DNA from: Bacillota bacterium
Lineage (GTDB): Bacteria; Bacillota; Clostridia; Clostridiales; Clostridiaceae
DNA length: 64,000 nt
Assembly: GCA_032907345.1 (NCBI GenBank)
Contig: JAJBWD010000222.1
Coordinates: 1,550 to 65,549 of the forward strand
Direction: 5' to 3'
Made by a program: the position numbers and the translations under genes. This document shows, in pieces, positions 6,938-23,738 of this stretch (the first letter of the stretch is position 1; every line of letters starts with the position of its first letter). A model generated the notes under the pieces. That model had not been told where the DNA came from. It worked only from the letters and a program-made list of their open reading frames with translations, and did not search any database.

Positions 6938-7172
6938 TTCAAGATCAGCCAGAGCGGCCGCTGCAGGCCGAACAATTATACCACACATGAGACCAACTTG
7001 TCAAGAGGGAAAATGAAAAAATTTTAAAAAATTTTTTCATTCCTAAAATGCTATTGCTTGTTAAAAAAATGACACACTTTAGCGCGTTAAAAGATCAAAG
7101 TAAATCGTTTAAAAACGAAGATCTTAAAATTATCTGAAAATTAAAAAAATAGTCTGAAAATTAAAAAAGATG

Positions 7173-7201
7173 TTGACAAGTACGCCTTTTAGCGTTATAA
7201 T
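7173..7201 (+). promoter_or_regulatory. sigma-A type promoter (TTGACA-17-TATAAT)
   Basis: TTGACA 7173-78 and TATAAT 7196-7201, followed by the conserved 5'UTR ...ACCGATCGAGAAAGGGG..AAAATG. Confidence 0.75.
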
Positions 7202-7248
7202 TGATTTATCAAATGAAGCAAAGAACCGATCGAGAAAGGGGTTTTAAA

Positions 7249-7470
7249 ATGACTAACTACTTCGTACTTAATGCTAAAGGTGTTATGGTTGGAAACTTTA
7301 CCAATGAAAAGGAAGCAAAAGAGTATTTAAACAAGGGACTGAAAAGAGGATGGAAATGGACACTTGAAACTGTCACACACAATACTCGCGTTCCTGAAGT
7401 TTGGGAAATGGCAGGTTGTAAACAGGATACGACAAAAGTTGATTGGGGCAGGAATTGGATGCTTCAGTAA
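7249..7470 (+). CDS. hypothetical early protein (73 aa), paralog of 10307..10537
   Basis: RBS + ATG 7249. Shares ...LNKGLKRGW.WTLET..H..R.PEVWEMAGCKQD.TKV.WGRNWMLQ with the paralog. Confidence 0.7.
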   Translation: MTNYFVLNAKGVMVGNFTNEKEAKEYLNKGLKRGWKWTLETVTHNTRVPEVWEMAGCKQDTTKVDWGRNWMLQ

Positions 7471-7601
7471 AATAAAAAGGTTTGGTGAAAAACCAAACCT
7501 TTTTTAAAAATTTTTTTAAAAACCTATTGACTTTAACCTATAATGTGTTATAATAATATCATCAAAGGAAAACAAAAACCGATCGAGAAAAGAGGTACAA
7601 A

Positions 7602-8015
7602 ATGGCAACTTATTACTTTGATGTTGATGGTGTTCTTGCTGATTTTCATAGTGCATACGATGCAAAGAATAGAGGTCTTTCCCTTAGATATGACTTTATT
7701 AGGAATCTGAAACCTTTTGTACAAAATATCCTTTTGGTCAAGGCTTTAATCGAAGCAGGAAATGACGTTTATATTTCTGCCATGGTAGCAAATAAATATA
7801 CTGAAAAGGCAAGAATTGATTGGATTCATGAATTTCTTCCTGAAATAAATGATAGCCATATTATTACAATCATGGGCCATGGTAAAAAGCATGAACACAT
7901 GAAAACAAAAGACGGTATCTTGATTGATGATAAAAAGACTAATTGTAATCAGTGGAAAAAAGCTGGATTCGTAGCTATCTGGTTAGAAGAAAAGGGTGGA
8001 AAAATAAATCTTTAA
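7602..8015 (+). CDS. HAD-superfamily 5'(3')-deoxyribonucleotidase-like phosphatase
   Basis: N-terminal YFDVDGVLADF (DxDG motif) and ...ILIDDK... Second copy at 15223..15672. Confidence 0.65.
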   Translation: MATYYFDVDGVLADFHSAYDAKNRGLSLRYDFIRNLKPFVQNILLVKALIEAGNDVYISAMVANKYTEKARIDWIHEFLPEINDSHIITIMGHGKKHEHMKTKDGILIDDKKTNCNQWKKAGFVAIWLEEKGGKINL

Positions 8016-8025
8016 ATTTAAAAAA

Positions 8026-8059
8026 GGGGGTTGACAAACCTCAACCCCTTTGATATAAT
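8026..8059 (+). promoter_or_regulatory. fused terminator-promoter (hairpin GGGGTTGA-CAAACC-TCAACCCC carries the -35)
   Basis: TTGACA 8031-36, 17-bp spacer, TGaTATAAT ending at 8059. The hairpin is followed by TTTGATAT. Confidence 0.75.
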
Positions 8060-8102
8060 AAATACAGTTAAAGGAAAACACCGATCGAGAAAGGAGTACA
8101 AA

Positions 8103-8324
8103 ATGAAAACAACATTCATCTACATGGTAAACGGAACTGAGCTTTATTCTGAAAAGGCTTTCGGTCAGGAATGGAAAGAAGCTAAAGCAATTGCAAAAGA
8201 AGCCCATTGTGGAATTTACAGGGCAGTTGTTAAGGGCGAGGAAATCCGCTATGAATTCTTTGCTAAGGGCGGTTGCTTCCTGAACGAAAGATTTTATACC
8301 GATGAAAAGATTGAAATCTTTTAA
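8103..8324 (+). CDS. hypothetical early protein (73 aa), paralog of 8576..8797
   Basis: M.T.FIYMVNGTELY..KAFG.EWK.AKA.A..AHCGIYRAV...EE.RYEFFAKGGCFLNERFYTDEKI.IF. Confidence 0.7.
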   Translation: MKTTFIYMVNGTELYSEKAFGQEWKEAKAIAKEAHCGIYRAVVKGEEIRYEFFAKGGCFLNERFYTDEKIEIF

Positions 8325-8575
8325 TTATAAAAGTCTTGCTGTTTTCAGCAAGGCTTTTTGTTTTTTATCTAAGTTTCCGCAGGCGATCCCTGCGGGCCGA
8401 AAAATTATATCACATGCGTCAGCTAATTGTCAAGATGTAAAAATGCACAAATATTAAAGCTATACTGATCCCGTTTTTGGATATATTTTTTTTAAAAATC
8501 TATTGACTTTTTTCTATAGTATGTTATAATAATATCATCAAAGGAAAACAAACCGATCAAAGAAAGGGGTTTAAA

Positions 8576-8797
8576 ATGACTACAGAATTCATCTACATGG
8601 TAAACGGAACTGAACTTTATACTACTAAAGCTTTTGGAGAAGAATGGAAAAAAGCTAAAGCACTTGCAGAGCAGGCACACTGCGGAATCTACAGAGCAGT
8701 TATCAGAAATGAAGAAACTCGTTACGAGTTCTTTGCAAAAGGTGGTTGCTTCCTGAATGAAAGATTTTACACCGATGAAAAGATTAAAATCTTTTAA
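8576..8797 (+). CDS. hypothetical early protein (73 aa), paralog of 8103..8324
   Basis: ORF track; see the paralog. Confidence 0.7.
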   Translation: MTTEFIYMVNGTELYTTKAFGEEWKKAKALAEQAHCGIYRAVIRNEETRYEFFAKGGCFLNERFYTDEKIKIF

Positions 8798-8810
8798 AAA
8801 AAATAAAAAA

Positions 8811-8844
8811 GGGGGTTGACAAAACCTCAACCCCCTGATATAAT
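8811..8844 (+). promoter_or_regulatory. fused terminator-promoter
   Basis: Hairpin GGGGGTTGA...TCAACCCCC; TTGACA 8816-21; TATAAT 8839-44. Confidence 0.75.
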
Positions 8845-8892
8845 ATAATCATCAAAGGAAAACAAAAGCACCGATCAAAAAGGAGATTAAAA

Positions 8893-9090
8893 ATGACTAC
8901 TATCGCTATTAATTCTTTCGTAACTGTTACCTTTACTGAGAAAACTGCTCGCCTTTACAATCAGGCAATTGAGTCTGATAAGACTCTCGACAGGGCTTGG
9001 AAAGCCTATTGTGACGGGGATATGGATTATAACGATTTTGATGATTTCCGTTTTGAAAATTGGCAGATTTGGGAAAAACTTCTTTCCTAA
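8893..9090 (+). CDS. hypothetical early protein (65 aa)
   Basis: ORF track with the conserved 5'UTR. Confidence 0.6.
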   Translation: MTTIAINSFVTVTFTEKTARLYNQAIESDKTLDRAWKAYCDGDMDYNDFDDFRFENWQIWEKLLS

Positions 9091-9100
9091 TCTTAAAAAA

Positions 9101-9133
9101 GGGGTTGACAAACCTCAACCCCTTTGATATAAT
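9101..9133 (+). promoter_or_regulatory. fused terminator-promoter
   Basis: GGGGTTGACAAACCTCAACCCC; TTGACA 9105-10; TATAAT 9128-33. Confidence 0.75.
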
Positions 9134-9184
9134 AAATACAGTTAAAGGAAAGCGAAAGCACCGATCAAAGAAAGGGGTTCTAAA

Positions 9185-9307
9185 ATGACAAAAGAGATTC
9201 AGGCAAAGGTTGACGCATGGTACAAAGAGTATTGCAAAAAGAACGGCAAGGCTCCTACATGGATCGAATTGATAGAAGCCACAAAAAAAATTGAAAAAGG
9301 GGGTTGA
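9185..9307 (+). CDS. hypothetical early protein (40 aa)
   Basis: Conserved 5'UTR + ATG 9185. The TGA stop lies inside the next promoter's TTGACA. Confidence 0.45.
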   Translation: MTKEIQAKVDAWYKEYCKKNGKAPTWIELIEATKKIEKGG

Positions 9308-9360
9308 CAAAAAACTCCCTTTAGGCTATAATATAATCATCAAAGGAAAGGAGATAAAAA

Positions 9361-9525
9361 ATGTTTTATTTAACTTATGACTTAGGAATGTATGATGATG
9401 AAACTATTTGTGAAGCATTTGATACAATAGAAGAACTTCTTGAAAGATATAAAGAAATACAATATGAAGTATGTGAAATAGAAGCATGGAAAGACGATAA
9501 AAAAATTGCTCCATGGTATAAATAA
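9361..9525 (+). CDS. hypothetical early protein (54 aa)
   Basis: RBS AAGGAG + ATG 9361; TAA 9523-25. Confidence 0.5.
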   Translation: MFYLTYDLGMYDDETICEAFDTIEELLERYKEIQYEVCEIEAWKDDKKIAPWYK

Positions 9526-9603
9526 TACTTGACAAAAGCCAAGCCCTTTGATATAATAAATACAGTTAAAGGAAAACAAAACACAAAAGAAAGGTGGTAC
9601 AAA

Positions 9604-9705
9604 ATGTCTCTTAACGAAATGATGAACTGTGGTGCAACTCTTGCGGAACTGCTTGCGGAATGTGGTGTAACTCCTGAGGAATTCAATGGCGAGGACGAGG
9701 ATTAA
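9604..9705 (+). CDS. tiny acidic protein (33 aa), related to 11290..11427
   Basis: Shares ...LAELL.E.G......EDED* with 11290..11427. The stop sits in the terminator stem. Confidence 0.4.
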   Translation: MSLNEMMNCGATLAELLAECGVTPEEFNGEDED

Positions 9706-9719
9706 TCCTCGTCCTTTTT
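9692..9719 (+). terminator. intrinsic terminator
   Basis: AGGACGAGGAT-TA-ATCCTCGTCCT followed by TTTTT. Confidence 0.8.
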
Positions 9720-9915
9720 GCGCGGCGCGCGGCTGGCCGTCCCTTGCCAGGCCGGGCCGGGAATCATTATACCACAGCCGCCAGAAAAAATCAATATCGG
9801 AAATGTGCACAAAGATCAGGCACAAAATTCCTAAAATTTTGTACAATATTTTACTTGACACGACTGCTGTCATGGGGTATAATGTATACATAAGATAAAG
9901 GAAAGGAGATACGAC

Positions 9916-10215: not shown

Positions 10216-10306
10216 AAAAAATTAAAAAAGGGCTTGACAAAAGCCAAGCCCTTTGATATAATAAATACAGTTAAAGGAAAACACCGATCGAGAAAAGAGG
10301 TTTAAA

Positions 10307-10537
10307 ATGAAAACTTACACAACTTACACTATCCTTAATGCAAAAGGTACAATCGTTGCTCTTTATGATAATGAAGCACAGGCAACAGAAAAATTAAATA
10401 AAGGTTTAAAAAGAGGTTGGAACTGGACACTTGAAACTACAGTCCATACAATCCGCACTCCCGAGGTTTGGGAAATGGCAGGTTGCAAGCAAGACGCAAC
10501 AAAAGTTAACTGGGGTAGGAATTGGATGCTTCAGTAA
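10307..10537 (+). CDS. hypothetical early protein (76 aa), paralog of 7249..7470
   Basis: ORF track; see the paralog. Confidence 0.7.
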   Translation: MKTYTTYTILNAKGTIVALYDNEAQATEKLNKGLKRGWNWTLETTVHTIRTPEVWEMAGCKQDATKVNWGRNWMLQ

Positions 10538-10632
10538 AAATTTTAAAAAAGGGCTTGACAAAAAGCCAAGCCCTTTGATATAATAATATCATCAAAGGAA
10601 AACAATAACACCAATCAAGAGAGGGTTTTAAA

Positions 10633-11427: not shown

Positions 11428-11537
11428 TTCTTGTCCTTTTTTGACCGGGCCGCGGCGGTCTGCTTCTCACCGCCGCGGCCCGAAGTTCCATTATATCATA
11501 CCTGCCGCCTTTTTGTCAAGCATTTTTTCAAAAAAAA

Positions 11538-11567
11538 TGCACAAAGATCCATCCTGAATTTTGTGCA
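11538..11567. promoter_or_regulatory. operator-like inverted repeat TGCACAAA-N14-TTTGTGCA
   Basis: One of at least 10 copies lying between divergent promoters. Confidence 0.6.
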
Positions 11568-11715
11568 TTTTGTCTATTGCATTTTTTTGGTCTATCCCTT
11601 ATAATAATAATTGTCAAGGGGAGCGAGCCAAGATGAGGCTCAGGTATCTGCCACCTACATGAACCAGTGGTGCTCCCCTATACGGCGAATAAGAATAAAA
11701 CGAGAGGTGATAAAA

Positions 11716-11962: not shown

Positions 11963-12151
11963 ATGAGAAAAGTTGTTTACGGTAACGGTCTTTTTTGCTT
12001 CAACGATATTAAGGATTTGCCTGCTCCTGAGAGATTCGTTAAACTGGTAACTATTATTCCGCCCGATGAAATTGAATCTAAAGAAAAGTTTATGGCGGAA
12101 GCCATTAAAACAGGCCGTATTCATCCTCGGAAACGTCCTAAAGCAATTTAA
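11963..12151 (+). CDS. hypothetical early protein (62 aa)
   Basis: ORF track. Confidence 0.55.
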   Translation: MRKVVYGNGLFCFNDIKDLPAPERFVKLVTIIPPDEIESKEKFMAEAIKTGRIHPRKRPKAI

Positions 12152-12189
12152 AAAATTGCTTGACAATAAACTTTTAATCTGATATAATT

Positions 12190-12600
12190 AAATCATCGAA
12201 AGGGGAAATAAAATGAGAGGTCCACCGATTTAACGCCAAGTGGCTGACGGGCGCCACTAATTTAGCCCAAGCCTATCGAGGGCTATTGCTCACCAAAAAG
12301 AACTACTGCAAGTCCCAGAGCGCAGTGTGAGTGGAGATAGGTCAAAAGGTTCTTAATAAACTCCCTTATTGAAGAAAGAGGTAAATCAAATGGTAAATTA
12401 AAGCACCTTACCTACAAGGGGCAATGACATAAAGGAATGGGATAAAAGAGCGTAGGACAGCTCTCCCCTATGTAACATATTTTTCGATATTCCGGCAATA
12501 GTGGTAATTAATTATGAGAGACCCTCCGAAAGAAAAATAATTTAAAAATTTATATTAGATACGTTAGGCAGATTTGGTCATGTTACCAAATCCGCCTCTA
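12190..12600 (+). ncRNA. promoter-driven ORF-less transcript (~400 nt), unknown class
   Basis: Consensus promoter TTGACA 12161..GATATAAT. No ORF longer than 10 codons even with TAG=Gln. Internal repeat ATGAGAG(G/A)(T/C)CC(A/T)CCG at both ends. Confidence 0.4.
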
Positions 12601-12607
12601 TGTGCGT

Positions 12608-12680
12608 GGCGCGCGCCCGGACGTTCCTTTCCAGCGCGCGCCAAAATTCAATTATATCATACCACCAGCCTTTTTGTCAA
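12608..12680 (-). promoter_or_regulatory. minus-strand consensus promoter firing into a GC-rich hairpin (antisense unit)
   Basis: Reverse complement reads TTGACA (12675-80)-18-TGaTATAAT (12651-56), then GGCGCGCGC...GCGCGCGCC (12608-42). Confidence 0.6.
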
Positions 12681-12804
12681 TAGGAAAATCATACAAAAAT
12701 AAAATATTTTAAATCCCATAATTTGTATAATTTTACATATTGCTTTTTCTATGAGATATGATATAATATAATCATCAAAAGGAAATAATAAAAGGAGAAA
12801 TAAA

Positions 12805-13158
12805 ATGACTTATTATCAGACTAAAAAAGAAATTGATAGACTTACCGCTCTTCTTAATCAGACCTATACAACTGAAATTCCTTATCTTGCTAATAAAACT
12901 CGTTGTGTAGGACATGGAATGTTTATGGACACAGATGAAGTTTGTGTAAAATACAACGTCATTAATACTCCTGTTTACAGAGGACAGACAAGACAAGAAA
13001 TTGAAAAACAAATTAAAATACTTAAAGACAGTATTGCAGACGAGGAAGAAAAACGCCGTATTACCGCCAAATTAAAGAGGTATAAAAAAGAATTCGAAAC
13101 ATTAAATAAAAGAAAAGACTATCTTGAAAAATGGATTGCTGAAAATGAAGAAATTTAA
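12805..13158 (+). CDS. hypothetical early protein (117 aa)
   Basis: ORF track. Confidence 0.6.
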   Translation: MTYYQTKKEIDRLTALLNQTYTTEIPYLANKTRCVGHGMFMDTDEVCVKYNVINTPVYRGQTRQEIEKQIKILKDSIADEEEKRRITAKLKRYKKEFETLNKRKDYLEKWIAENEEI

Positions 13159-13240
13159 AAATTTCTTCTTGACAAAACTCTTTTAATCTAATATAATTAA
13201 ATCATCAAAAGGAAACAAACTTATAAAAAGGAGATAAATC

Positions 13241-13486
13241 ATGAAAGCTATTAGAACAATCCTTGTCCCTGTTGAAAAAGAGTGTGAAATCCTTTTCCGT
13301 ATCCGTTGCAATCCTATTTGCTATGACCCTCATTTTGCTCCAGGAGAACCTTTTTACGTAAAACAGGACGGAAAAGTTCTTTATTTTGAAGATGAAGAGG
13401 ACGCAAAAGCAACTATAAAGAAACTTGAAAAAGATTATCTTTTCGTAAAAATGGAAATTGAAGAGAAAATCATTTCTATTTTTTAA
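13241..13486 (+). CDS. hypothetical early protein (81 aa)
   Basis: ORF track. Confidence 0.6.
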   Translation: MKAIRTILVPVEKECEILFRIRCNPICYDPHFAPGEPFYVKQDGKVLYFEDEEDAKATIKKLEKDYLFVKMEIEEKIISIF

Positions 13487-13555
13487 AAAGGGGTTGACAA
13501 ATAACTATTCCTCTGATATAATATAATCATCAACAAAAGAAAAGGAGATAAAAAA

Positions 13556-13774: not shown

Positions 13775-13778
13775 AAAT

Positions 13779-13810
13779 AAGGGGATAGTAAACACTATCC
13801 CCTTATTTTT
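13779..13810. terminator. bidirectional intrinsic terminator
   Basis: AAAAAT-AAGGGGATAG..CTATCCCCTT-ATTTTT. Confidence 0.75.
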
Positions 13811-13815
13811 GCTCG

Positions 13816-13877
13816 CCGCGCGCTCATCCAGGGCGCGCGGAAAAATCATTATATCACACCCGTCAGCTTTTTGTCAA
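13816..13877 (-). promoter_or_regulatory. minus-strand promoter + GC hairpin unit
   Basis: Reverse complement reads TTGACA 13872-77, 18-bp spacer, TGaTATAAT 13848-53. Hairpin CCGCGCGC..GCGCGCGG 13816-40. Terminator 13779-13810 lies downstream in the minus sense. Confidence 0.6.
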
Positions 13878-14270
13878 TAGGAATTTTATACAAAATATAA
13901 TTTTTTCTGATCCCGTAATTTGTGCAATATTACATATTGCATTTTTAACAGTTATCGCTTATAATAATAATTGTCAAGGGGAGAGCTTAAACCAACAGTT
14001 ACCTCATAGAGGTCGGAACGCTCATAAAAAAATCAAAAATAAAGGAAAAACCCCTTGACATAATCACCAAAAGGTGCTATAATAAATACATAAGGTGAGG
14101 GATGGAAGCAAGGGAAAGAACCCAAGACGCCAAGTTGTCGCAGTAAGTCTTCCTGATAAAGTCCCACCACCGCAAGGAGCCTGACTTTGCGGTATATAAA
14201 TGTGAACCAAGCGGTTAAATTCGCAACCCTATAGACTCTGGAAAGGGGTTGGTCAGGCGAGTCATTTTTA

Positions 14271-14396: not shown

Positions 14397-14579
14397 ATGA
14401 TGAATTTCGCATCTTACATTGTAACCGTTAACGCTTCCTCTAACAAGGTCGCAGTCATCCGCAAGGCAATCGAGGCTACAGGTCTCTATATCCTTGACCT
14501 GAACGGTATCAAGGCGGTTGGAAAGGACTCTTATGAGTGCTCCGGCTGTTTCATCCGCCAGGGCGGGCAGAGGGTATAA
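14397..14579 (+). CDS. hypothetical early protein (60 aa)
   Basis: RBS AAAGGAG + ATG. Confidence 0.55.
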   Translation: MMNFASYIVTVNASSNKVAVIRKAIEATGLYILDLNGIKAVGKDSYECSGCFIRQGGQRV

Positions 14580-14797
14580 ACCCTCTGTTTTTTTGCCTGC
14601 GCCGCGTTGGTGCGTTTCTCTGCCAACGCGGCGCAAAATTTTATTATACCACACCGCTGGCCTTTTTGTCAAGCGAAATCTACAATAAAAATAAACAAAA
14701 TCTGATCCCGAAATTTGTGCATTTTGCCTATTGTATTTTTAAAAGCTATCCCTTATAATTATACTTGTCAAAAGGAAAGCAACAGAAAGGAATAAAT

Positions 14798-15222: not shown

Positions 15223-15672
15223 ATGAAAACACTTGTATTTGATATGGATGGTACTCTTGCTGATACTTATAGCGTCAATGGATGGCTTCAGATGCTTAGA
15301 GCGGAAAACCCTGCGCCGTACATTAAAGCTAAACCCTTTTATGACATGGTGCTCCTGACCGCTATCCTGTGGGTTCTTAAAAATGACGGTTGGAGAATTG
15401 CCGTTACATCGTGGCTTGCTAAGGATTCTACCCCTGAATATGATGCAAAAGTCAGGCAGGCAAAAATTGATTGGCTTCGCAGATATGACTTCCCTTATGA
15501 TGAACTTCATATTGTAGAATATGGAACTGTTAAAGAAACCTGTACAAAAGACCTCGGCGGTTTTCAGATTCTATTTGATGATGATGAACGTGTGAGAAAA
15601 AGTTGGACACTTGGAGATGCTATTGACGCAAATCAAAATATTATTCCGTTTCTATCGGAACTGATTGCTTAA
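15223..15672 (+). CDS. HAD-superfamily 5'(3')-deoxyribonucleotidase-like phosphatase (second copy)
   Basis: VFDMDGTLADT and ...ILFDDDE. Confidence 0.65.
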   Translation: MKTLVFDMDGTLADTYSVNGWLQMLRAENPAPYIKAKPFYDMVLLTAILWVLKNDGWRIAVTSWLAKDSTPEYDAKVRQAKIDWLRRYDFPYDELHIVEYGTVKETCTKDLGGFQILFDDDERVRKSWTLGDAIDANQNIIPFLSELIA

Positions 15673-15677
15673 AAACC

Positions 15678-15700
15678 AGAGGGCGTATGCCCTCTTTTTT
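15678..15700. terminator. bidirectional intrinsic terminator
   Basis: AAAAACC-AGAGGGC-GTAT-GCCCTCT-TTTTT. Confidence 0.75.
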
Positions 15701-16249
15701 GCTCGTGCCGCGGTCCACAGGGCCGCGGCGAAAATTCCATTATATCATACTCCTGAGATTTTATCAAGTGAAAATCTGCACAAACTTACATCAATTCAGA
15801 TCCCGTAATTTGTGCAATATTCCGATATTGTATTTTTTAAAAATTTTTAGTATAATATAATTGTTCCAAGAGAGAAAGGAATTAAAAAACTCTCCCCTTT
15901 TCGGCAGATTACCGTTTGACAGCCACCTTCAAGGAGTAAGGAAATAACATAAACGGCGTTTCAAGGATTACCTGTCCATTTTCTTTGGCGTGAAAAGAAA
16001 TAAAAGGTAGCAAGCATCGGCGCCGTGCTTGCGAAAAAAATAAAAAAAGTTCTTGACAAAGACAAGAATTTTTGATATAATATCTTTACAAGGTAAGGAA
16101 AAGAAAATAAATGGTTACGGCTATGGGGTAAGGCTCTGGTCAATCATTTAAAAAACTTTTAAAAAAGCCTTGACAAAGAAAAAATCTTATGATATAATAA
16201 ATACATAAGATAAAGAAAACAAATTCATTCATCAAAAAGGAGAAAAAGT

Positions 16250-16769: not shown

Positions 16770-17049
16770 CTTGACTGACTTTTATTTGTCCTCCTTTCTG
16801 TGTGTGGGCCTGGAATATTCCAGGCCCTATTTTTATGCTTGGCCCGCGCCTGCGCGTAGTGCTCCGGCGCGGGCCAATTTTTTATTATACCATGCCGCCA
16901 GCTTTTTTGTCAATAGAAAATCTATACAAATATTTAATTTAAATATTCCCGTAATTTGTATAATATTACCTATTGCATTTTTAATGGTTATCGCTTATAA
17001 TAATAATTGTCAAGAGGACAGCACAACATCACACAAAGGAGATTCTAAT

Positions 17050-17541
17050 ATGAAAAAATCTTATGAAGAGCGTGGTATTAAGTTCGGTACATATCTTGCG
17101 AAGCTGTTTCAGGATTGTGATTGTTATAATGATTTTAGGAAAATCATTATGGAATATAACAGATGCCATACCCGTAAGTTAAAATGGGCAAGTGGTTTTA
17201 CCCGAATTGCTATTATTCGTGCTGACTATGTAATTAAATTTACATATAGAAAAGGTACTCGTATCGGTGACTGTGAAAGCGAAAGAGCAATATATGTACA
17301 GGCAGAAAAAGCAGGTATGGCTCACCTTTTTGCAAAAACTACTCTTGTCACAGAATATGGCTTAACTTTTGCTGTAATGCCTAAAATCAATGGAATCGGC
17401 AACTATTCTCTTAACTGGAGAGAACATTGCACATGGGAAGAGCAAAAGTGGATTAATGCTCATGTTATCGACTTGCATGAAGATAATGTAGGTTATCGTA
17501 GAGATAAAGTTTGCATTGTTGATTATGCTTATGTCAGATAA
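17050..17541 (+). CDS. protein-kinase-like fold protein (163 aa), distant paralog of 33578..34219
   Basis: RBS AAAGGAG + ATG 17050. VIKF...E...; catalytic-loop-like IDLHEDNVGY and IVDYA. Confidence 0.45.
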   Translation: MKKSYEERGIKFGTYLAKLFQDCDCYNDFRKIIMEYNRCHTRKLKWASGFTRIAIIRADYVIKFTYRKGTRIGDCESERAIYVQAEKAGMAHLFAKTTLVTEYGLTFAVMPKINGIGNYSLNWREHCTWEEQKWINAHVIDLHEDNVGYRRDKVCIVDYAYVR

Positions 17542-17638
17542 AAAAATGCGCCCGATTAGTAATAAAACTGGTCGGGCGCGCATCGACCGGGATGCGCGCC
17601 AAAAATTCTATTATATCATGCCGTGGCATTTTTGTCAA
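17541..17638 (-). ncRNA. predicted ~60-nt antisense sRNA unit (promoter, GC hairpin, terminator)
   Basis: Reverse complement reads TTGACA 17633-38, 17-bp spacer, TGaTATAAT 17610-15. GGCGCGCATC..GATGCGCGCC spans 17575-600. GCGCCCGA..TCGGGCGC + UUUUUUU spans 17541-79. The two hairpins overlap by 5 nt. Confidence 0.55.
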
Positions 17639-17646: not shown

Positions 17647-17688
17647 CTGCACAAATTTTGATTTATTTTTATCCCAAAATTTGTGCAG
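17647..17688. promoter_or_regulatory. operator-like perfect inverted repeat CTGCACAAATTTTG-N14-CAAAATTTGTGCAG
   Basis: Read directly from the sequence. Confidence 0.65.
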
Positions 17689-17817
17689 ATTTTTTAAAAA
17701 TTTTGCTTGCGTTTCCGCTTGCTATCCTTTATAATAATACTTGTAAGAAATAAACAACAGCAAACAATAGTAAAGGAGATAGGTAGGGGAAAGTTGGATA
17801 GAAGAATTAAATACCTT

Positions 17818-19061: not shown

Positions 19062-19120
19062 TTGACAGCCTGGGCGGGAAGTGGTATAATGGACGGGCCG
19101 CGCTCCTTTGTCGCGCGGCC
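19062..19120 (+). promoter_or_regulatory. plus-strand copy of the 'consensus promoter + GC hairpin' unit
   Basis: TTGACA 19062-67, 17-bp spacer, TGgTATAAT 19085-90, then GGCCGCGC..GCGCGGCC 19096-120. Confidence 0.55.
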
Positions 19121-19234
19121 GAATTTTGTCAATACTGTAATATTGCATAATTTTTCGTTTCAATTTTTGTATATTTTGCCTATTGCTTTATTCCTATAAT
19201 CTGATATACTTATATTATTAACAAAGGAGAAAGA

Positions 19235-19861: not shown

Positions 19862-19959
19862 CAAAAATGCGCCCGATTGATATAAAAATTTAGTCGGGCG
19901 CGCAACGGTCGTTGCGCGCCAAAAATTCTATTATACCACACTCCGAGCCTTTTTGTCAA
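19862..19959 (-). ncRNA. predicted antisense sRNA unit (near-copy of 17541..17638)
   Basis: Reverse complement reads TTGACA 19954-59 and TATAAT 19930-35, then GGCGCGCAACG..CGTTGCGCGCC, then GCGCCCGA..TCGGGCGC + UUUUU. Confidence 0.55.
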
Positions 19960-20044
19960 GTCTTTTTTTAAACGAATTTTCGTTAAAAAATTTCCCGATA
20001 TTCGTACTTGCAAAATCAAAAAATTTCTGGTATAATTTAATTAC

Positions 20045-20335
20045 AAAATGAGAGAGGGAGAGAGCCGAAAGTCAAGACGGTTAGCACAGCCCCAAAAAGT
20101 AAATTTGCGCACACGCCATGGAGTCTCCGCAAATGAAACCTTTAAAAATTACTAAAAAAGGCTTGACACGGAACAACAGCTGTGATATACTTATTACAGT
20201 AAACAACAGAAAGGGAGAACAAAGATGCGACTTTGTAGATAAGCGGAAACAGGCTCATCCGCTATGACATAAATGTGGGCAGGGGTAAACGGAAGCGGAT
20301 TGACGTCACCGCTTCTTCTCCCCGAAAAAAAATAA
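20045..20335 (+). ncRNA. two consecutive promoter-driven ORF-less units upstream of 20423
   Basis: Promoters lie at about 20020 and 20167. Only a 5-codon mini-ORF (ATGCGACTTTGTAGATAA) is present. The analogous arrangement is at 15860-16230. Confidence 0.35.
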
Positions 20336-20422
20336 AAAAAGTTCTTGACAAAAAGAAAAAAATAAGATATAATAAATACATAAGATAAAACAAAATATTC
20401 ATTTAAGAAAGGAAGTCCAAAC

Positions 20423-20824: not shown

Positions 20825-21009
20825 CACACACAGGCTACCACTGTAAAAGGTGGTAGCCTTTTTGGCGCGCGTACAAACCACGCGCGCCAATTTTTTGTCA
20901 ATATGTCACTTTTAACAAATTTTTCATCCATTTTTTGTATATTTTACCTATTGTTTTATTCCTATAATCTGATATAATAATAATTGTCAAGAGGAAAGGA
21001 GATAAAAAA

Positions 21010-21354: not shown

Positions 21355-21357
21355 AAA

Positions 21358-21651
21358 ATGATTACATACGATATGATTATTGAAGCACAGAATTATCTTG
21401 TAGAAAACTGGGGCGAAGATGGTAAAAAAGTCATCGAAGCCGCTTTCACTGTTAATCCTTTTAATGGAAATACAAAGGCTTTTCTTGACCATTGTTCTGC
21501 ATGTGGCGGAAATTGGGGCGGAATGTTTCTTACTGGAATTAAAAGACTTTACCCTAATGTTTATGACGCTATTCCTAATGATATGGGGGTTTTCGCTTTT
21601 ACTTGTATCGCTATGACTATGAGACTTTGCGGTGTCGATACTTCAAAATAA
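21358..21651 (+). CDS. hypothetical protein (97 aa)
   Basis: ORF track. Confidence 0.6.
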   Translation: MITYDMIIEAQNYLVENWGEDGKKVIEAAFTVNPFNGNTKAFLDHCSACGGNWGGMFLTGIKRLYPNVYDAIPNDMGVFAFTCIAMTMRLCGVDTSK

Positions 21652-21713
21652 AGTATTGACAAAATAAAAATTTTATTATATAATAATATTATCAAAAGAA
21701 AGGAAATAAAAAA

Positions 21714-21812
21714 ATGTATTATTATTACCCTGGAACACAGCCACATCTTGGAACTTTAGTAATCTTTTGTGCAGTTTTTGTAGCTTTTGTTTTAACATGG
21801 AAAGGAAGGTAA
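21714..21812 (+). CDS. tiny membrane protein (32 aa)
   Basis: Promoter 21656, RBS, MYYYYPGTQPHLGTLVIFCAVFVAFVLTWKGR. Confidence 0.35.
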   Translation: MYYYYPGTQPHLGTLVIFCAVFVAFVLTWKGR

Positions 21813-21815
21813 AAT

Positions 21816-22019
21816 ATGAATTTTCCTATTACTCTTGGTTTTGTTTGTCCTATGTGTAGTACTTATCATACTCTTACTGTCGAGTTAGAGCAGTATCTTA
21901 ATTATCAGGACGGTGAACTTGTACAGGATGCTTTTCCCAAAATGTCGCCTACTGACCGCGAGCGTATTCTTTCTGGTTTTTGTCCTGATTGTCAGGAAAA
22001 AATTTTTATGGAGTTTTAA
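21816..22019 (+). CDS. Zn-ribbon protein (67 aa)
   Basis: CPMC...CPDC. Confidence 0.55.
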   Translation: MNFPITLGFVCPMCSTYHTLTVELEQYLNYQDGELVQDAFPKMSPTDRERILSGFCPDCQEKIFMEF

Positions 22020-22198
22020 GATGGTCGCCTCTTCCAGAAATGGTCGGGGCGCTGACCATTGAGTCAGCACCGAATTTTTGTCAATATGTAATATTCAACA
22101 AAAATTAATCTACATTTTTGTGCAACATTACCTATTGCATTTTCCCGATAATCTGATATAATAATAATTGTCAAGAGGAAAGCAAGAAAGGAAATAAC

Positions 22199-22375
22199 AT
22201 GACTGAAATCGAAAAAACCATTTTAGAAAATCAAGAGGTTATTCTTAGTGCGCTTGCACAATTTGCAGTTTCAAAAGTATCCAAAAACCAAAAATATGCT
22301 AAACATGTAAATGCATTGATAGATAATTACCATAAAACCAGAAAACTTTTAGGAAAAACATATATTCAACGATAA
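22199..22375 (+). CDS. hypothetical protein (58 aa)
   Basis: RBS AAAGGAA + ATG 22199; TAA 22373-75. Confidence 0.5.
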   Translation: MTEIEKTILENQEVILSALAQFAVSKVSKNQKYAKHVNALIDNYHKTRKLLGKTYIQR

Positions 22376-22394
22376 TAATTTAAAAAGGGGAACT

Positions 22395-22619
22395 TTGATT
22401 ATGATAACTATGAATGACGTTAGAGAGTTTGTAGAAAAAATGCTTACCCATGCAAAAGAGTGTTCTTCCGCAGACATGGTTATGAATTGCCGTGCACAGG
22501 CTTTTGGTGTTATCATGTTTGCGCAAAAGTTTATTCCTTATGATGAACTTATTGATTATTGGGAAAATCAAGGCATTTGGCAGAAATTTAATGATATTGC
22601 AGGGGAGAAAAACAAATGA
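22395..22619 (+). CDS. hypothetical protein (74 aa)
   Basis: ORF track. Confidence 0.55.
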   Translation: MIMITMNDVREFVEKMLTHAKECSSADMVMNCRAQAFGVIMFAQKFIPYDELIDYWENQGIWQKFNDIAGEKNK

Positions 22620-22792
22620 TGAATTGGAAAGACAAAATGAAAAAAGCTATGAAAGCTATTAAAGAAGCAAGTGGAGAGAATGCATCATGGGATAACTGTT
22701 ATCATTGTCCCTTTTTAGCTTGTTGTAATGCTATGGGGCATGAGGGATTAAGTGCTCCTGATGGATGGGAAATTAAAAATGAAGATAATTAA
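22616..22792 (+). CDS. Cys-rich protein (58 aa), paralog of 23088..23276
   Basis: M.W K..MK.AMKAIK.A.......W......C.CPF..CCN.....GLS.PD.W. Confidence 0.55.
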   Translation: MMNWKDKMKKAMKAIKEASGENASWDNCYHCPFLACCNAMGHEGLSAPDGWEIKNEDN

Positions 22793-22890
22793 ACTACCAA
22801 CAAAAGAAAAGGATAAAATAAGAATTGGTTGGCATATTTATAAAGTTTTATTTCGAATTGGTTATATCCATATTTTAAGAGAGATTTAAA

Positions 22891-23109
22891 ATGGCAAAAT
22901 ATCTTATTATGAAATGTAATGAACTTTCTGACCAGTATGAATGTGATGCTGACCGCTTCCCTGTTTGTCTTGTTGATAATTGGACATATTATAATGAATA
23001 CGGTTATGAGGTTTATGAAGTTTTAAAAAATAATACTTTTAAATTGATTAAAAGTTATGAACAGACAGAAAAAAGAAAAGGTAAAAAATGGATTGGAAAG
23101 AAGAAATGA
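22891..23109 (+). CDS. hypothetical protein (72 aa)
   Basis: ORF track. Confidence 0.55.
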   Translation: MAKYLIMKCNELSDQYECDADRFPVCLVDNWTYYNEYGYEVYEVLKNNTFKLIKSYEQTEKRKGKKWIGKKK

Positions 23110-23276
23110 AAGAAGCTATGAAAGCTATTAAAAGAGCATGTGAAAAAAATACAACATGGATAGGCGAAAAAAGAGAGGATTGTTGCCAATGTCCATTTTT
23201 TATTTGCTGTAATATTATTGAACTTGCGGGATTAAGTATCCCTGATGAGTGGGGGCCGAATGTAGATGAATTTTAA
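23088..23276 (+). CDS. Cys-rich protein (62 aa), paralog of 22616..22792
   Basis: ORF track. Confidence 0.55.
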   Translation: MDWKEEMKEAMKAIKRACEKNTTWIGEKREDCCQCPFFICCNIIELAGLSIPDEWGPNVDEF

Positions 23277-23421
23277 AATTGATGTTATAAGAACTATTAT
23301 TTGGTTTTTTATTCTTATTCCAGTTTCTAATTATTATTTTCCCAAGCCTGTTCATTATTGGCCAATAATTCTTATAATGCAAGTGTTAATTAGTATATAC
23401 ATGACAATAACAATTTATTAA
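23266..23421 (+). CDS. small membrane protein (51 aa)
   Basis: Two TM segments; TAA 23419-21. Confidence 0.4.
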   Translation: MNFKIDVIRTIIWFFILIPVSNYYFPKPVHYWPIILIMQVLISIYMTITIY

Positions 23422-23444
23422 CAGGCGGAAACGCCTGTTTTTTT
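23421..23444 (+). terminator. intrinsic terminator ending the early array
   Basis: ACAGGCG-GAAA-CGCCTGT followed by TTTTTTT. Confidence 0.8.
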
Positions 23445-23456
23445 ATACCTACATAC

Positions 23457-23472
23457 TGTTAAATATTTAACA
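23457..23472. repeat. isolated copy of the iteron palindrome TGTTAAATATTTAACA
   Basis: Same motif as 6437-6679, here at the far end of the early array. Confidence 0.7.
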
Positions 23473-23738
23473 ATCGCCGGCGCGGTGTCTCTGACCCGCG
23501 CCCAATTATACCACAAAATCTACCCTTTGTCAATATTTTTTTCAAAAAAAATTGCACAAAAATTACCTCAAAATTCCCGAAATTTTTGTGCAAATTGCAC
23601 AAAGGGGGTTCCGCATCTACCTTCTATTTCACTTTTTTATATGGTCATATGGCACAGATCGAGAGACCGAGACATATGGCTTTGCCGCCGAGACCGCACT
23701 TGACTTTATTAAAATATTATAATATAATATTAAAAAAA

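What the first reader, a model, noticed from the sequence alone, without database searches (positions are those of the whole stretch)
6955..23533. Family of >=12 minus-strand 'consensus promoter + GC-rich hairpin' units at the 3' ends of plus-strand early operons
On the minus strand, TTGACA-17/18-TG(n)TATAAT recurs. The -10 positions on plus coordinates are 6975, 8404, 9766, 11490, 12651, 13848, 14643, 15739, 16884, 17610, 19930 and 23505. The hexamers and the TG are conserved while the spacers differ, which is the signature of selection for promoter function. No minus-strand gene exists in this region.

Each promoter fires, after an AAUUUU stretch, into an 8-12-bp almost pure G/C hairpin whose sequence differs between copies. 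The transcript then runs into the reverse side of the plus-strand terminator. At 13779-13877, 15678-15767, 17541-17638 and 19862-19959 the downstream hairpin is followed by a U run in the minus sense. This predicts discrete ~60-100-nt sRNAs antisense to early mRNA 3' ends. In the 17.5 kb and 19.9 kb copies the two hairpins overlap by 5 nt and so exclude each other.

One copy (19062-19120) is in plus orientation. Truncated copies lie at about 20870 and 22060. Possible roles are antisense shut-off of early mRNAs, transcriptional roadblocks, or put-like RNA elements.
Basis: seen in the sequence. Interest (0 to 1): 0.7.

Follow-up and report, generated by a model that had tools for sequence, protein, structure and literature searches.

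The report
Backward promoter-hairpin units ending phage operons
In this large uncultivated gut or rumen phage, most early operons end with a perfect host-type promoter that points backwards and starts its RNA with a very stable GC hairpin. Many related phages keep the same design, which most likely makes long-lived antisense RNAs that fence off or shut down early transcription.

Summary
The window holds 31 perfect TTGACA-N16-19-TATAAT sites, against 0.13 expected. Ten are on the minus strand between 6.9 and 23.5 kb, and two more have an imperfect -35. Each is followed by a GC-rich hairpin; none of the gene-driving promoters is.

In 15 related phage loci, hairpin-type promoters run antisense to the genes 57:16, and ordinary promoters run sense 154:3. 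At orthologous sites the hexamers are 97-100% identical. The hairpin region is only 54% identical yet always folds, with compensatory changes. The stem starts 7-9 nt after the -10, at the predicted 5' end of the RNA.

- a sense terminator;
- the GC hairpin;
- the antisense promoter;
- a TGCACAAA / ATCCCGnAATTTGTGCA box at fixed spacing;
- a second, weaker sense promoter about 60 bp away.

Best reading (confidence 0.4): these are dedicated non-coding units making 5'-hairpin-stabilised antisense RNAs against the 3' ends of early operons, with head-on interference as a by-effect. No Rfam family, annotated phage or paper found describes them. The closest known kinds are T4-type PeSL cassettes and oop/sar-type antisense RNAs. 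I rate it a new variant of a known kind.

The parts
6943..7004 (-). Unit 1. Promoter TTGACA-18-TATAAT at 6975-7004. Weak, irregular GC-rich stem at 6943-6973. It fires towards the AT palindrome at 6888-6930 and the TTAACA palindrome array.
   Evidence: (z -0.9). The orthologue L131:13881 keeps both hexamers.
8377..8433 (-). Unit 2. Promoter at 8404-8433. Hairpin CCGCAGG/CCTGCGG at 8377-8395. The sense terminator at 8329-8358 also looks like a terminator on the minus strand.
9706..9794 (-). Unit 3. Promoter with degenerate -35 (TTGATT-17-TATAAT) at 9766-9794. Irregular GC-rich structure at 9706-9762, abutting the sense terminator at about 9691-9719.
   Evidence: (z +0.5)
11446..11519 (-). Unit 4. 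Promoter at 11490-11519. Hairpin with a 13-14 bp stem at 11446-11482.
   Evidence: (-36.5 kcal/mol, z -6.8). Compensatory changes against L131 and L130.
12607..12680 (-). Unit 5. Promoter at 12651-12680. Hairpin at 12607-12643. An ORF-free, structured-looking stretch lies upstream, not a gene.
   Evidence: (z -3.6)
13775..13877 (-). Unit 6. Promoter at 13848-13877. Hairpin at 13816-13840. A bidirectional terminator at about 13779-13811 gives a predicted RNA of about 65 nt.
   Evidence: (z -6.1)
14596..14672 (-). Unit 7. Promoter at 14643-14672. Hairpin at 14596-14637. Sense terminator at 14565-14590.
   Evidence: (z -4.3)
15672..15767 (-). Unit 8. Promoter TTGATA-17-TATAAT at 15739-15767; the -35 is TTGACA in L131 and L130. 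Hairpin at 15707-15729. A bidirectional terminator at 15678-15695 gives a predicted RNA of about 60 nt.
   Evidence: (z -3.6)
16839..16913 (-). Unit 9. Promoter at 16884-16913. Hairpin at 16839-16877. The sense terminator at 16806-16827 lies behind tRNA-Lys.
   Evidence: (z -9.9)
17541..17638 (-). Unit 10. Promoter at 17610-17638. Hairpin 1 at 17575-17600. An overlapping hairpin 2 plus a U run reaches to about 17541, giving a predicted RNA of about 63 nt.
   Evidence: (z -3.3)
19862..19959 (-). Unit 11, a paralogue of unit 10. Promoter at 19930-19959. Hairpin 1 at 19897-19920. Hairpin 2 plus a U run reaches to about 19862.
   Evidence: (z -2.1)
23479..23533 (-). Unit 12. Promoter at 23505-23533. 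Hairpin at 23479-23502. Sense terminator at 23420-23439.
   Evidence: (z -4.5)
19062..19133 (+). Sense-oriented copy. Promoter at 19062-19090. Hairpin at 19096-19120, followed by GAATTTTGTCAAT, which holds a retained minus-sense -35 without a -10.
   Evidence: z -3.6. The L131 orthologue has no promoter at this site.
20862..20899 (.). Cassette without a promoter. A GC hairpin at 20862-20890 is followed directly by TTTTTTGTCAAT, which reads as a sense terminator. The -10 and spacer are absent.
   Evidence: Conserved in L131.
22047..22085 (.). Second cassette without a promoter. The hairpin GGCGCTGAC..GTCAGCACC is followed by GAATTTTTGTCAAT.
   Evidence: compensatory A:T to T:A change in L131
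6327..6358 (.). Orphan GC hairpin (11 bp stem) behind a sense terminator. No promoter, and none of the other cassette elements was seen next to it.
11538..11605 (+). Right arm of cassette 4. TGCACAAA at 11538 and TTTGTGCA at 11560. Second sense promoter TTGCAT-17-TATAAT at 11577-11605.
13911..13965 (+). Right arm of cassette 6. Box TCCCGTAATTTGTGCA at 13911-13926. Promoter TTGCAT-17-TATAAT at 13937-13965.
14706..14759 (+). Right arm of cassette 7. Box at 14706-14721. Promoter TTGTAT-17-TATAAT at 14731-14759.
15777..15856 (+). Right arm of cassette 8. TGCACAAA at 15777. Box at 15801-15816. Promoter at 15828-15856.
16947..17001 (+). Right arm of cassette 9. Box at 16947-16962. Promoter TTGCAT-17-TATAAT at 16973-17001.
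17648..17735 (+). Right arm of cassette 10. TGCACAAA at 17648. Box at 17672-17687. Promoter at 17707-17735.
12714..12767 (+). Right arm of cassette 5. Box at 12714-12729. Promoter TTGCTT..TATAAT at 12740-12767.
23553..23603 (+). Right arm of cassette 12. Three TGCACAAA/TTTGTGCA boxes, at 23553, 23585 and 23596, plus a degenerate box at 23575.

Best explanation
**What it is.** Each unit is a dedicated, strongly expressed, non-coding transcription unit read by the host's primary-sigma RNA polymerase.

- The promoter has a perfect -35, a TGn-extended -10 and a GG discriminator.
- It sits face-to-face with the end of an early operon.
- It starts its RNA at the foot of a 7-16 bp, almost pure G/C stem, so the 5' end is buried in a hairpin of about -15 to -36 kcal/mol.

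**How it probably works (inferred).**
1. The hairpin acts as a 5' stabiliser against 5'-end-dependent decay, making the RNA long-lived.
2. The polymerase then reads the sense terminator backwards. The RNA is therefore exactly complementary to the terminator stem and U tail of the upstream early mRNA.
3. Where no U run follows, the RNA also covers the 3' part of the last gene. In four or five copies a bidirectional terminator instead cuts it to about 60-70 nt.
4. Pairing with the mRNA 3' end exposes it to double-strand-specific cleavage and 3' exonucleases, as with oop or RatA.
5. Head-on transcription also stops any polymerase that leaks through the terminator. This insulates the next cassette arm, which holds a conserved box and a weaker sense promoter.

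**Shown:** promoter and hairpin conservation, hairpin position, orientation bias and cassette anatomy.

**Inferred:** that the RNA is made, that it is stable, and what it does to the mRNA.
For: - The excess of consensus promoters is 31 against 0.13 expected.
- There is a strict dichotomy. Promoters that point at an RBS and gene have A-rich starts with a purine at position 7 in 138 of 144 cases. Hairpin-type promoters have GGAATTT(T/C)CG and no gene downstream.
- The stem begins 7-9 nt after the -10 in 38 of 50 non-redundant units from many phages.
- Identity at orthologous sites is 97% for the -35, 100% for the -10, 77% for the spacer, 79% upstream, and 54% for the hairpin region, which still always folds.
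- Compensatory pairs are seen.
- Orientation is 57 antisense to 16 sense for hairpin promoters, against 3 to 154 for ordinary promoters.
- By eye, about 70% of units have an A run plus a second hairpin, the reverse of a sense terminator, within about 5-25 nt downstream of the GC hairpin.
- Loops are purine-rich in the promoter sense, 221 of 368 nt, which runs against the genome's strand skew.
- Large loops of 9-15 nt in about half the units fit RNA hairpins better than DNA cruciforms.
- Convergent promoter pairs share one palindromic hairpin placed correctly for both starts, at L109:9955/10048 and 6475/6570, L251:92/196 and L132:5173.
Against: - There is no transcript evidence of any kind.
- The hairpins fold equally well in both senses, at -22.0 against -22.4 kcal/mol, and hold almost no G-U pairs. 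The strand that matters cannot be read from them.
- 16 of 73 hairpin promoters are in sense orientation, and the promoter can be absent or flipped at orthologous sites while the hairpin and the rest of the cassette stay. Antisense pairing therefore cannot be the only role of the hairpin.
- Only 4-5 of 12 units have a terminator for the antisense RNA.
- The antisense promoters have the same sigma-A consensus as the early promoters, so a delay between the two is not explained by the promoter sequence.
- The predicted start region is pyrimidine-rich (T at position 7 in 38 of 50 units), which is unusual for a start site.
Confidence: 0.4

Rival explanations
1. Boundary insulator by polymerase traffic alone. 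The face-to-face promoter exists to load polymerases that collide with, or sit in the way of, sense polymerases leaking through the terminator. This protects the regulated promoter and box downstream. The RNA is a by-product, and the hairpin only stops the antisense polymerase from backtracking.
For: - Units lie exactly between a sense terminator and the next promoter arm.
- The upstream units are heterogeneous, including proteins, a tRNA and non-coding stretches, so the role looks positional rather than gene-specific.
- A perfect consensus with a GG discriminator predicts very stable polymerase binding.
- Face-to-face pairs occur in L109, L057, L251 and phAss-1.
Against: - The distance from the -10 to the sense T run varies from about 37 to 68 nt.
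- Interference alone does not need a palindromic stem kept by compensatory changes at a fixed distance from the -10.
- The sense terminators already look strong.
- Cassettes without the promoter are conserved.
Confidence: 0.2
2. The hairpin RNA itself is the product. A short, 5'-triphosphate, GC-clamped stem acts by shape alone, whatever the orientation. It could be a decoy or sponge for a host nuclease or RNA-sensing defence, or a ligand for a phage protein.
For: - Only the structure is conserved, not the sequence.
- The hairpin is flush with the predicted start.
- Orientation is flexible, and sense copies are followed by (A)AUUUU, which could release an RNA of about 30-45 nt.
- Up to 12 or more copies sit in the earliest-expressed region.
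Against: - No known bacterial or phage protein with such a specificity was found in the literature searches.
- The strong antisense bias of 57:16 and the tight coupling to sense terminators are not needed for this role.
- Most antisense copies have no terminator right after the hairpin.
Confidence: 0.12
3. Mobile regulatory cassettes of the PeSL type. The repeated promoter-hairpin modules persist mainly because they are recombination linkers that shuffle small early genes. The antisense promoters are inverted or decaying copies with little physiological role.
For: - The cassettes are paralogous repeats.
- Hairpins and flanking genes are swapped between the window, L131 and L130 at cassette borders. 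For example, the hairpin of window 16884 sits at L131:7816, which is syntenic to window 14643, and a 1.4 kb block at 12151-13520 is missing in L131.
- The sense promoters with a terminator stem in the spacer match the PeSL description.
Against: - 97-100% identity of the hexamers against 54-79% around them at orthologous sites points to selection on promoter function, not on homology length.
- The hairpin region, the least conserved part, would be the poorest recombination substrate.
- The antisense orientation is the majority state across distant phages.
- This role is evolutionary and does not exclude a physiological one.
Confidence: 0.1
4. A DNA-level element. The GC palindromes work as DNA, for example as a cruciform, a topoisomerase or gyrase site, or another protein-binding site at junctions of convergent transcription, like REP/BIME elements. 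The promoter only drives the local supercoiling.
For: - The stems are perfect Watson-Crick pairs with no wobble and fold equally in both senses.
- The hairpins persist without the promoter.
- They sit where positive supercoils from convergent transcription would build up (inference).
Against: - Loops of 9-15 nt are common, and these disfavour cruciform extrusion.
- The hairpins share no sequence that a site-specific protein could read.
- The fixed distance to the -10 is not explained.
Confidence: 0.07
5. A put-like antitermination RNA, or a chance or neutral feature.
For: Two stem-loops directly behind a strong early promoter resemble the layout of HK022 put (abstract shown).
Against: - There is no sequence or detailed structure conservation between copies.
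- Nothing downstream needs to be read through.
- The orientation is against the genes.
- Chance is excluded.
Confidence: 0.02

Closest known systems
PeSL (promoter-early stem-loop) cassettes of T4-type phages (Arbiol et al. 2010, PMC2839356; Comeau et al. 2014, PMC4122927)
   Same: - They are short repeated composites of a very strong sigma-70-type early promoter and a G/C-rich stem-loop.
- They are concentrated in the region of small early genes of unknown function.
- The stem-loop can lie between the -35 and -10 or just downstream of the -10.
- They are linked to shuffling of gene modules.
- The sense promoters of this window, with a terminator stem inside the spacer, fit the description well.
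   Different: - PeSL promoters point at the gene they drive, with an SD and ATG at their 3' edge. Their stem-loop terminates transcription arriving from upstream.
- The units studied here point away from all genes, carry the whole hairpin inside their own transcript, and have no U run behind it.
- They also form one arm of a larger cassette with a fixed-distance box and a divergent promoter.
- The host is Gram-positive-like and the phage clade is unrelated.
Short cis-antisense RNAs of temperate phages: lambda oop RNA (77 nt, against the 3' end of cII mRNA) and P22 sar RNA (about 69 nt, from a promoter facing Pant). From my own knowledge.
   Same: - Each has its own constitutive promoter on the opposite strand, convergent with an early transcript.
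- The RNA is a discrete species of 60-80 nt ending at a terminator.
- oop is complementary to the mRNA 3' end and acts through RNase III.
   Different: - There is one copy per phage, a specific target gene and a conserved sequence.
- There is no 5'-terminal GC clamp.
- Here there are 12 or more copies with unrelated sequences at operon ends of all kinds, and most lack their own terminator.
3'-overlapping antisense RNAs of Bacillus type I toxin-antitoxin loci (RatA/txpA, SR4/bsrG). From my own knowledge.
   Same: - They occur in Firmicutes.
- Transcription is convergent.
- The overlap covers the terminator region of the mRNA.
- The duplex is cut by RNase III.
   Different: Those target toxin mRNAs. 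Here the upstream genes show no toxin features and include a tRNA and non-coding stretches.
Face-to-face promoter switch of coliphage 186 (pR/pL) and engineered antisense promoters. From my own knowledge; the modelling paper PMC4519249 was listed but not read.
   Same: - A strong promoter fires into oncoming transcription.
- Interference works by collision or by the 'sitting duck' effect.
- Face-to-face pairs about 40 bp apart exist in relatives (L109, L251, phAss-1).
   Different: In this window the opposing sense promoter lies hundreds of bases away, behind a gene and a terminator. There is also no lysis-lysogeny decision here.
5'-terminal stabiliser hairpins (ompA leader, ermC, phage SP82 early RNA stabiliser). 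From my own knowledge.
   Same: A stable stem within a few nucleotides of the 5' end protects the RNA from 5'-end-dependent decay.
   Different: Those stabilise coding mRNAs. Here the stabilised RNA is non-coding and antisense.

Membership tests
PeSL cassettes (T4-type phages) | Strong sigma-70-type early promoter | tested here: met
   Perfect hexamers with TGn. This is sequence only; activity was not measured.
PeSL cassettes (T4-type phages) | Adjacent G/C-rich stem-loop | tested here: met
PeSL cassettes (T4-type phages) | The promoter drives the ORF immediately downstream, with an SD and ATG at the 3' edge | tested here: not met
   No RBS or ORF lies behind the minus-strand promoters, and they run against all genes. 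The feature is met by the window's ordinary sense promoters.
PeSL cassettes (T4-type phages) | The stem-loop terminates transcription coming from upstream of the cassette | tested here: not met
   In full units the GC hairpin has no U run in either sense. A U run is present only in the promoter-less copies at 20862 and 22047.
PeSL cassettes (T4-type phages) | Repeats mark the borders of insertions, deletions or replacements between close relatives | tested here: inconclusive
   Hairpin and gene swaps occur next to cassettes in the window, L131 and L130. Junctions were not mapped systematically.
oop/sar-type cis-antisense sRNA | Own promoter on the strand opposite the target | tested here: met
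   (sequence level)
oop/sar-type cis-antisense sRNA | Own terminator giving a discrete small RNA | tested here: inconclusive
   Present in 4-5 of 12 window units and in 8 of 50 family units by the heuristic scan.
oop/sar-type cis-antisense sRNA | The RNA is made, and it lowers the target mRNA through RNase III or a translation block | not testable with these tools
   Needs RNA mapping and genetics.
HK022 put RNA | Conserved two-stem RNA, in sense orientation, that makes the transcribing polymerase resistant to terminators for downstream genes | tested here: not met
   Hairpin sequences are unrelated between copies (33% identity). The units are antisense with no downstream genes. No Rfam match was found.
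Intrinsic (bidirectional) terminator | G/C-rich stem directly followed by a U run | tested here: not met
   Full units have AAAATT after the stem in the sense direction and an A run after it in the antisense direction. The feature is met only by the truncated copies.
REP/BIME-type extragenic palindromes | A family-wide conserved palindrome sequence | tested here: not met
   Only the structure and G+C content are shared.
Any Rfam family | Covariance-model match | tested here: not met
   Searches found only tRNAs and ROOL above the gathering score. Nothing matched at the units.

The most novel reading that the evidence does not exclude
The cassette is a regulated two-way switch that makes a new class of product. 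A conserved regulator, from the phage or the host, binds the fixed-distance box (TGCACAAATTnCGGGAT, 38 nt from the antisense -35) and decides between two promoters. One is the antisense consensus promoter and the other is the divergent sense promoter. The antisense product is a 5'-triphosphate, sequence-free GC-clamp RNA that works by shape alone, for example by sequestering a host nuclease or blinding an RNA-sensing defence, rather than by base pairing. That would be a structure-only family of phage early RNAs, encoded a dozen times per genome across a wide clade of gut and rumen phages.
Probability: 0.12. Interest if true: 0.8.

Novelty: new variant of a known kind. Interest (0 to 1): 0.6.

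Why it matters
If the units work as proposed, they would be a general, modular way for a lytic phage to end and time its early transcription, using only host polymerase, a backward promoter and a 5' clamp. They recur a dozen times per genome and are conserved across many uncultivated phages of gut and rumen Firmicutes, a group with TAG recoding, ROOL RNA and large tRNA sets for which nothing is known about gene regulation.

The design also gives directly testable parts: perfect promoters, a sequence-free stabiliser hairpin, and a conserved 17-nt box at fixed spacing. It would extend the PeSL idea of mobile regulatory cassettes from T4-type phages to an unrelated clade, and add an antisense arm to it.

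For annotation, it shows that consensus promoters pointing away from genes are not noise in these genomes.

Tried and rejected
1. **Rfam.** Searches at gathering and permissive thresholds found nothing at the units or at the other ORF-free stretches.
2. **Annotated phage records.**
   - Megablast and blastn found only tRNA matches.
   - A protein search led to phAss-1 and the Enterococcus EF1 group. phAss-1 has one convergent pair. EF1 has two weak analogues with TAAAAT -10 boxes.
   - Enterocloster phage PMBT24 has none, so there is no good cultured model.
3. **First pattern scan of viral contigs.** The promoter consensus used was too generic, giving more than 120 mostly unrelated loci, but about 15 true relatives could be picked out of it.
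4. **Scan of bacterial genomes for the box ATCCCGnAATTTGTGCA.** It returned roughly the number of hits expected by chance for 16 specified bases in 596 Gb. Only three loci, from metagenome-assembled genome bins (L151, L202, L251), were real relatives. No host regulon emerged.
5. **Strand test by G-U against A-C mismatches and by folding both strands.** This was uninformative. There was 1 G-U against 6 C-A or A-C mismatches, five of them C-A in copies of one hairpin type and explicable by an alternative fold. The energies were equal, with Wilcoxon p of 0.1.
6. **Fixed-geometry roadblock.** Rejected, because the distance from the promoter to the terminator varies.
7. **Resemblances considered from the sequence and set aside.** UTP-sensitive reiterative transcription was dropped because the A residues lie too close to the -10 to be the start. 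A sigma-54 promoter and a CodY, Rex or cre site were considered for the box, but the spacings and consensus do not fit.
8. **Other roles considered and found unlikely from the anatomy.** Replication-origin priming was dropped because the region is GC-rich rather than an unwinding element. Also considered were integron attC sites, CRISPR-repeat mimics and restriction decoys.
9. **Literature.** Four searches found no description of such units.

Full report

An exact search for TTGACA-N16-19-TATAAT finds 31 sites in the 64 kb window, against 0.13 expected from shuffles. Thirty of them lie between 6.9 and 23.6 kb. The other two reported sites have one or two mismatches in the -35: TTGATA at 15767 and TTGATT at 9794.

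All genes with a ribosome-binding site in this region are on the plus strand. The long minus-strand ORFs have no Pfam match and lie antisense to plus-strand genes.

The sequence downstream splits the promoters into two clean classes:
- The plus-strand promoters run into ATAATCATCAAAGGAAA-type leaders, an RBS and an ATG. Their best 24-mer reaches at most 0.58 G+C.
- Every minus-strand promoter, plus the single plus-strand copy at 19062, runs into a 24-mer of 0.71-0.83 G+C.

RNA folding gives stable hairpins for nine of the twelve units, with z from -2.05 to -9.9 against dinucleotide shuffles. Some folded segments include the adjacent terminator hairpin. Units 6975, 8404 and 9766 are weaker or irregular.

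Perfect GC-rich stems of at least 7 bp occur only 12 times in the whole window, all between 6.3 and 23.5 kb.

**2. Anatomy.**

Aligned on the -10, the units read as follows. First comes TTGACA. Then a spacer with residual consensus AAAAAGGCTGGCGGTRTG, then RTATAAT, then GGAATTT(T/C)C, then the stem.

Within the window, pairwise identity is 92% for the -35 and 100% for the -10. It is only 50% for the spacer, 39% for the stretch after the -10, and 33% for the hairpin region. The units are therefore diverged paralogues in which only the hexamers have been held.

In 50 non-redundant units from the window and related loci, the stem starts 7, 8 or 9 nt after the -10 in 38 cases. Gene-driving promoters of the same phages have a purine at position 7 in 138 of 144 cases. 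The hairpin promoters have T there in 38 of 50 and G at position 10 in 42 of 50.

By inference, the RNA begins at or within a few bases of the stem foot.

Downstream of the GC hairpin, in the promoter's sense, most units show an A run and then a second hairpin. This is the reverse complement of the sense terminator of the upstream unit. A U run follows it in units 13848, 15739, 17610 and 19930, and weakly in 8404. That predicts RNAs of about 60-70 nt. In the other units the transcript would run on into the 3' end of the upstream gene.

**3. The units are one arm of a larger cassette.**

Reading rightwards on the plus strand, each copy continues as follows:
- TTTTTGTCAA, which is the antisense -35;
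- a TGCACAAA box;
- about 24 nt further on, the box ATCCCGnAATTTGTGCA;
- a second sense promoter, cTATTGCAT-17-TATAAT-AATAATTGTCAAGAGGA.

Of the 17 TGCACAAA sites in the window, 15 lie between 8.4 and 23.6 kb. Most of them sit in these inter-promoter regions, against 3.3 expected in the window by chance.

The two -35 hexamers lie back-to-back. In most cassettes they are about 60 bp apart, with a range of 49-70.

Across many, often distant, phages the YGGGAW end of the box lies exactly 38 nt from the antisense -35. This holds in 27 of the 35 units where the box is recognisable. Such fixed spacing suggests a protein site shared by the divergent promoters. I could not identify the protein.

Conserved variants exist:
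- Cassettes at 20862 and about 22047 lack the antisense -10 and spacer. The GC hairpin is then followed directly by TTTTTGTCAAT, which reads as a sense terminator. The same form is kept at the orthologous sites in L131.
- The copy at 19062 has the promoter in sense orientation, whereas its L131 orthologue has no promoter.
- An orphan hairpin lies at 6327-6358.

**4. Relatives.**

No annotated phage record shares DNA with the region except at tRNAs. Pattern scans of IMG/VR and of genome bins recovered a syntenic relative (L131, IMGVR_UViG_3300021399_000006, 85-90% identical) and a more distant one (L130, about 75-80%). They also recovered about a dozen further phages with 27-42% G+C that carry the same architecture.

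At 13 orthologous pairs the identities are as follows:

| Region | Identity |
|---|---|
| -35 | 97% |
| -10 | 100% |
| Spacer | 77% |
| Upstream 40 nt | 79% |
| 7 nt after the -10 | 80% |
| Hairpin region | 54% |

Every orthologue still forms a hairpin. The window's imperfect TTGATA is TTGACA in both relatives.

Compensatory changes are seen in the 11490 family, where G:C is replaced by C:G, U:A or A:U. They are also seen in the truncated copy at 22060. Whole hairpins have been exchanged between sites. For example, the hairpin of window 16884 sits at the L131 site syntenic to window 14643.

Across 15 loci, hairpin-type promoters are antisense to the gene direction 57 times and sense 16 times. 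Ordinary consensus promoters are sense 154 times and antisense 3 times.

In L109, L057, L251 and phAss-1, two consensus promoters converge on a single palindromic hairpin that is correctly spaced for both.

Protein similarity places the clade near phAss-1 and the Enterococcus EF1 group. phAss-1 belongs to the 'code 15 clade', which reads TAG as a sense codon, and the window carries a tRNA with anticodon CTA. EF1 has only weak analogues and Enterocloster phage PMBT24 has none.

**5. What it most likely is.**

Several features point to real sigma-A promoters whose transcript begins with a clamped 5' end:
- selective retention of the hexamers;
- a hairpin maintained by compensation at a fixed distance from the -10;
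- the absence of any gene downstream;
- the strong antisense bias;
- the tight coupling to sense terminators.

A stem within a few nucleotides of the 5' end is the classical design of a 5' stabiliser (from my own knowledge: ompA, ermC, SP82). What lies behind the clamp in the majority orientation is only the complement of the upstream operon's terminator and 3' end.

I therefore commit to stable cis-antisense RNAs directed at early mRNA 3' ends. These would act like oop or RatA, with head-on interference as an unavoidable second effect that insulates the next cassette arm. My confidence is 0.4, because every step after 'promoter and hairpin are under selection' is inferred.

**6. What argues against it, and the rivals.**

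- The hairpins fold equally in both senses and carry practically no G-U pairs.
- The hairpin and the rest of the cassette persist without the antisense promoter or with it flipped.
- One in five hairpin promoters is in sense orientation.

The hairpin therefore has some role beyond capping an antisense RNA, or it works in both senses. It could be a second terminator, or a 3' barrier for sense read-through.

The rivals and my confidence in each:

| Rival | Confidence |
|---|---|
| Pure traffic insulator | 0.2 |
| Structure-only hairpin RNA product | 0.12 |
| PeSL-like recombination linkers with little physiology | 0.1; not exclusive |
| DNA-level palindrome | 0.07 |
| put-like element or chance | 0.02 |

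A roadblock with fixed geometry is not supported, because the distance from the -10 to the sense T run varies from about 37 to 68 nt. The purine-rich loops in the promoter sense (221 of 368 nt) run against the genome's strand skew. This is a weak hint that the promoter-sense RNA is the selected one.

**7. Comparison with what is known.**

The nearest described elements are the PeSL cassettes of T4-type phages. These are strong early promoters fused to G/C stem-loops, repeated in the regions of small orphan genes, and linked to module shuffling.

The window's ordinary sense promoters carry a terminator stem inside the -35 and spacer, for example aaaaaaGGGGTTGACAaaccTCAACCCCtttGATATAAT at 8021-8059. 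They fit that description.

The antisense units fail two defining features of PeSLs. They drive no gene, and their stem does not terminate incoming transcription.

oop and sar RNAs and the Bacillus 3'-overlapping antisense RNAs share the proposed mode of action, but not the multiplicity, the 5' clamp or the cassette context. No Rfam family matches, and four literature searches found no description.

I rate the finding a new variant of a known kind, with interest 0.6.

Noticed in passing
window 8021-8059, 8806-8844, 9095-9133, 9519-9557, 10224-10262, 10545-10584: The ordinary sense promoters carry a terminator stem that includes the -35 hexamer (GGGGTTGACAaaccTCAACCCC followed by TTTGATATAAT). 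The scan calls several of these stems terminator-like on the minus strand, and their flanking A and T runs would make them bidirectional. They are compact terminator-promoter composites like the PeSLs of T4-type phages.
   Followed up: partly
window 11538-11567, 13911-13926, 14706-14721, 15777-15816, 16947-16962, 17648-17687, 23553-23603; also L059, L070, L112, L010, L019, L072: A conserved asymmetric box, TGCACAAATTnCGGGAT, lies exactly 38 nt from the antisense -35 in 27 of 35 units from many phages. It often has a second TTTGTGCA about 32 bp away. It is probably the site of an unidentified regulator shared by the divergent promoters.
   Followed up: partly
window 6400-6930: An array of about eight copies of the palindrome TGTTAAATTTTTAACA is followed by two copies of AACATTGTTAAACTATTAACAAT and a 42-nt perfect AT-rich palindrome. 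All lie just left of the first early promoter. They could be an origin, a partition site or operator sites. The half-sites resemble Rex boxes, a link I recall from memory only.
   Followed up: no
window 12213-12233 and 12514-12540; L070 about 8085, L112 about 8420, L089 about 11000: Tiny ORFs, MRGPPI* and MRDPPKEK*, flank a gene-free, structured-looking stretch of about 280 nt. Mini-ORFs of the MR(D/S)PPK type sit directly behind consensus promoters in other phages of the clade. They could be arrest-peptide-like leaders.
   Followed up: no
window 11606-11700, 13966-14050, 14084-14270, 15857-16040, 16082-16150, 20037-20150, 20192-20340: Several promoter-driven stretches hold no ORF. One runs into tRNA-Tyr. 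They are candidate small RNAs or leaders, and none matches Rfam.
   Followed up: partly
window 35843-46783, 43943-44019, 40265-40868: There is an array of about 30 tRNAs, including a suppressor with anticodon CTA, which fits TAG recoding as in the phAss-1 'code 15' clade. A ROOL RNA lies at 40265-40855 (280 bits). It is followed at 40868 by the only consensus promoter outside the early region.
   Followed up: partly
window 24001-26000: GC skew is extreme here, at -0.52, where the gene direction flips after the last unit.
   Followed up: no
L070:10807, L112:681, L089:8923, L109:12111: A conserved sRNA-like unit occurs in relatives. A consensus promoter is followed by GGGCCGCGGGC...GGCCCG and then ...CCCATATGGGCTTTTTT. 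It is absent from this window.
   Followed up: partly
window 12151-13520 against L131 9785-9791: A 1.4 kb block is absent from the close relative L131 and is bounded by two sense promoters. It holds the ORF-free structured-looking stretch, unit 5 and two genes. This is an example of cassette-bounded module gain or loss.
   Followed up: partly
window 7602-8015 and 15223-15672: Two early genes encode HAD or 5'-nucleotidase-like proteins. NT5C scores 25.3 bits, just above its cut-off. They may act on host nucleotide pools.
   Followed up: no
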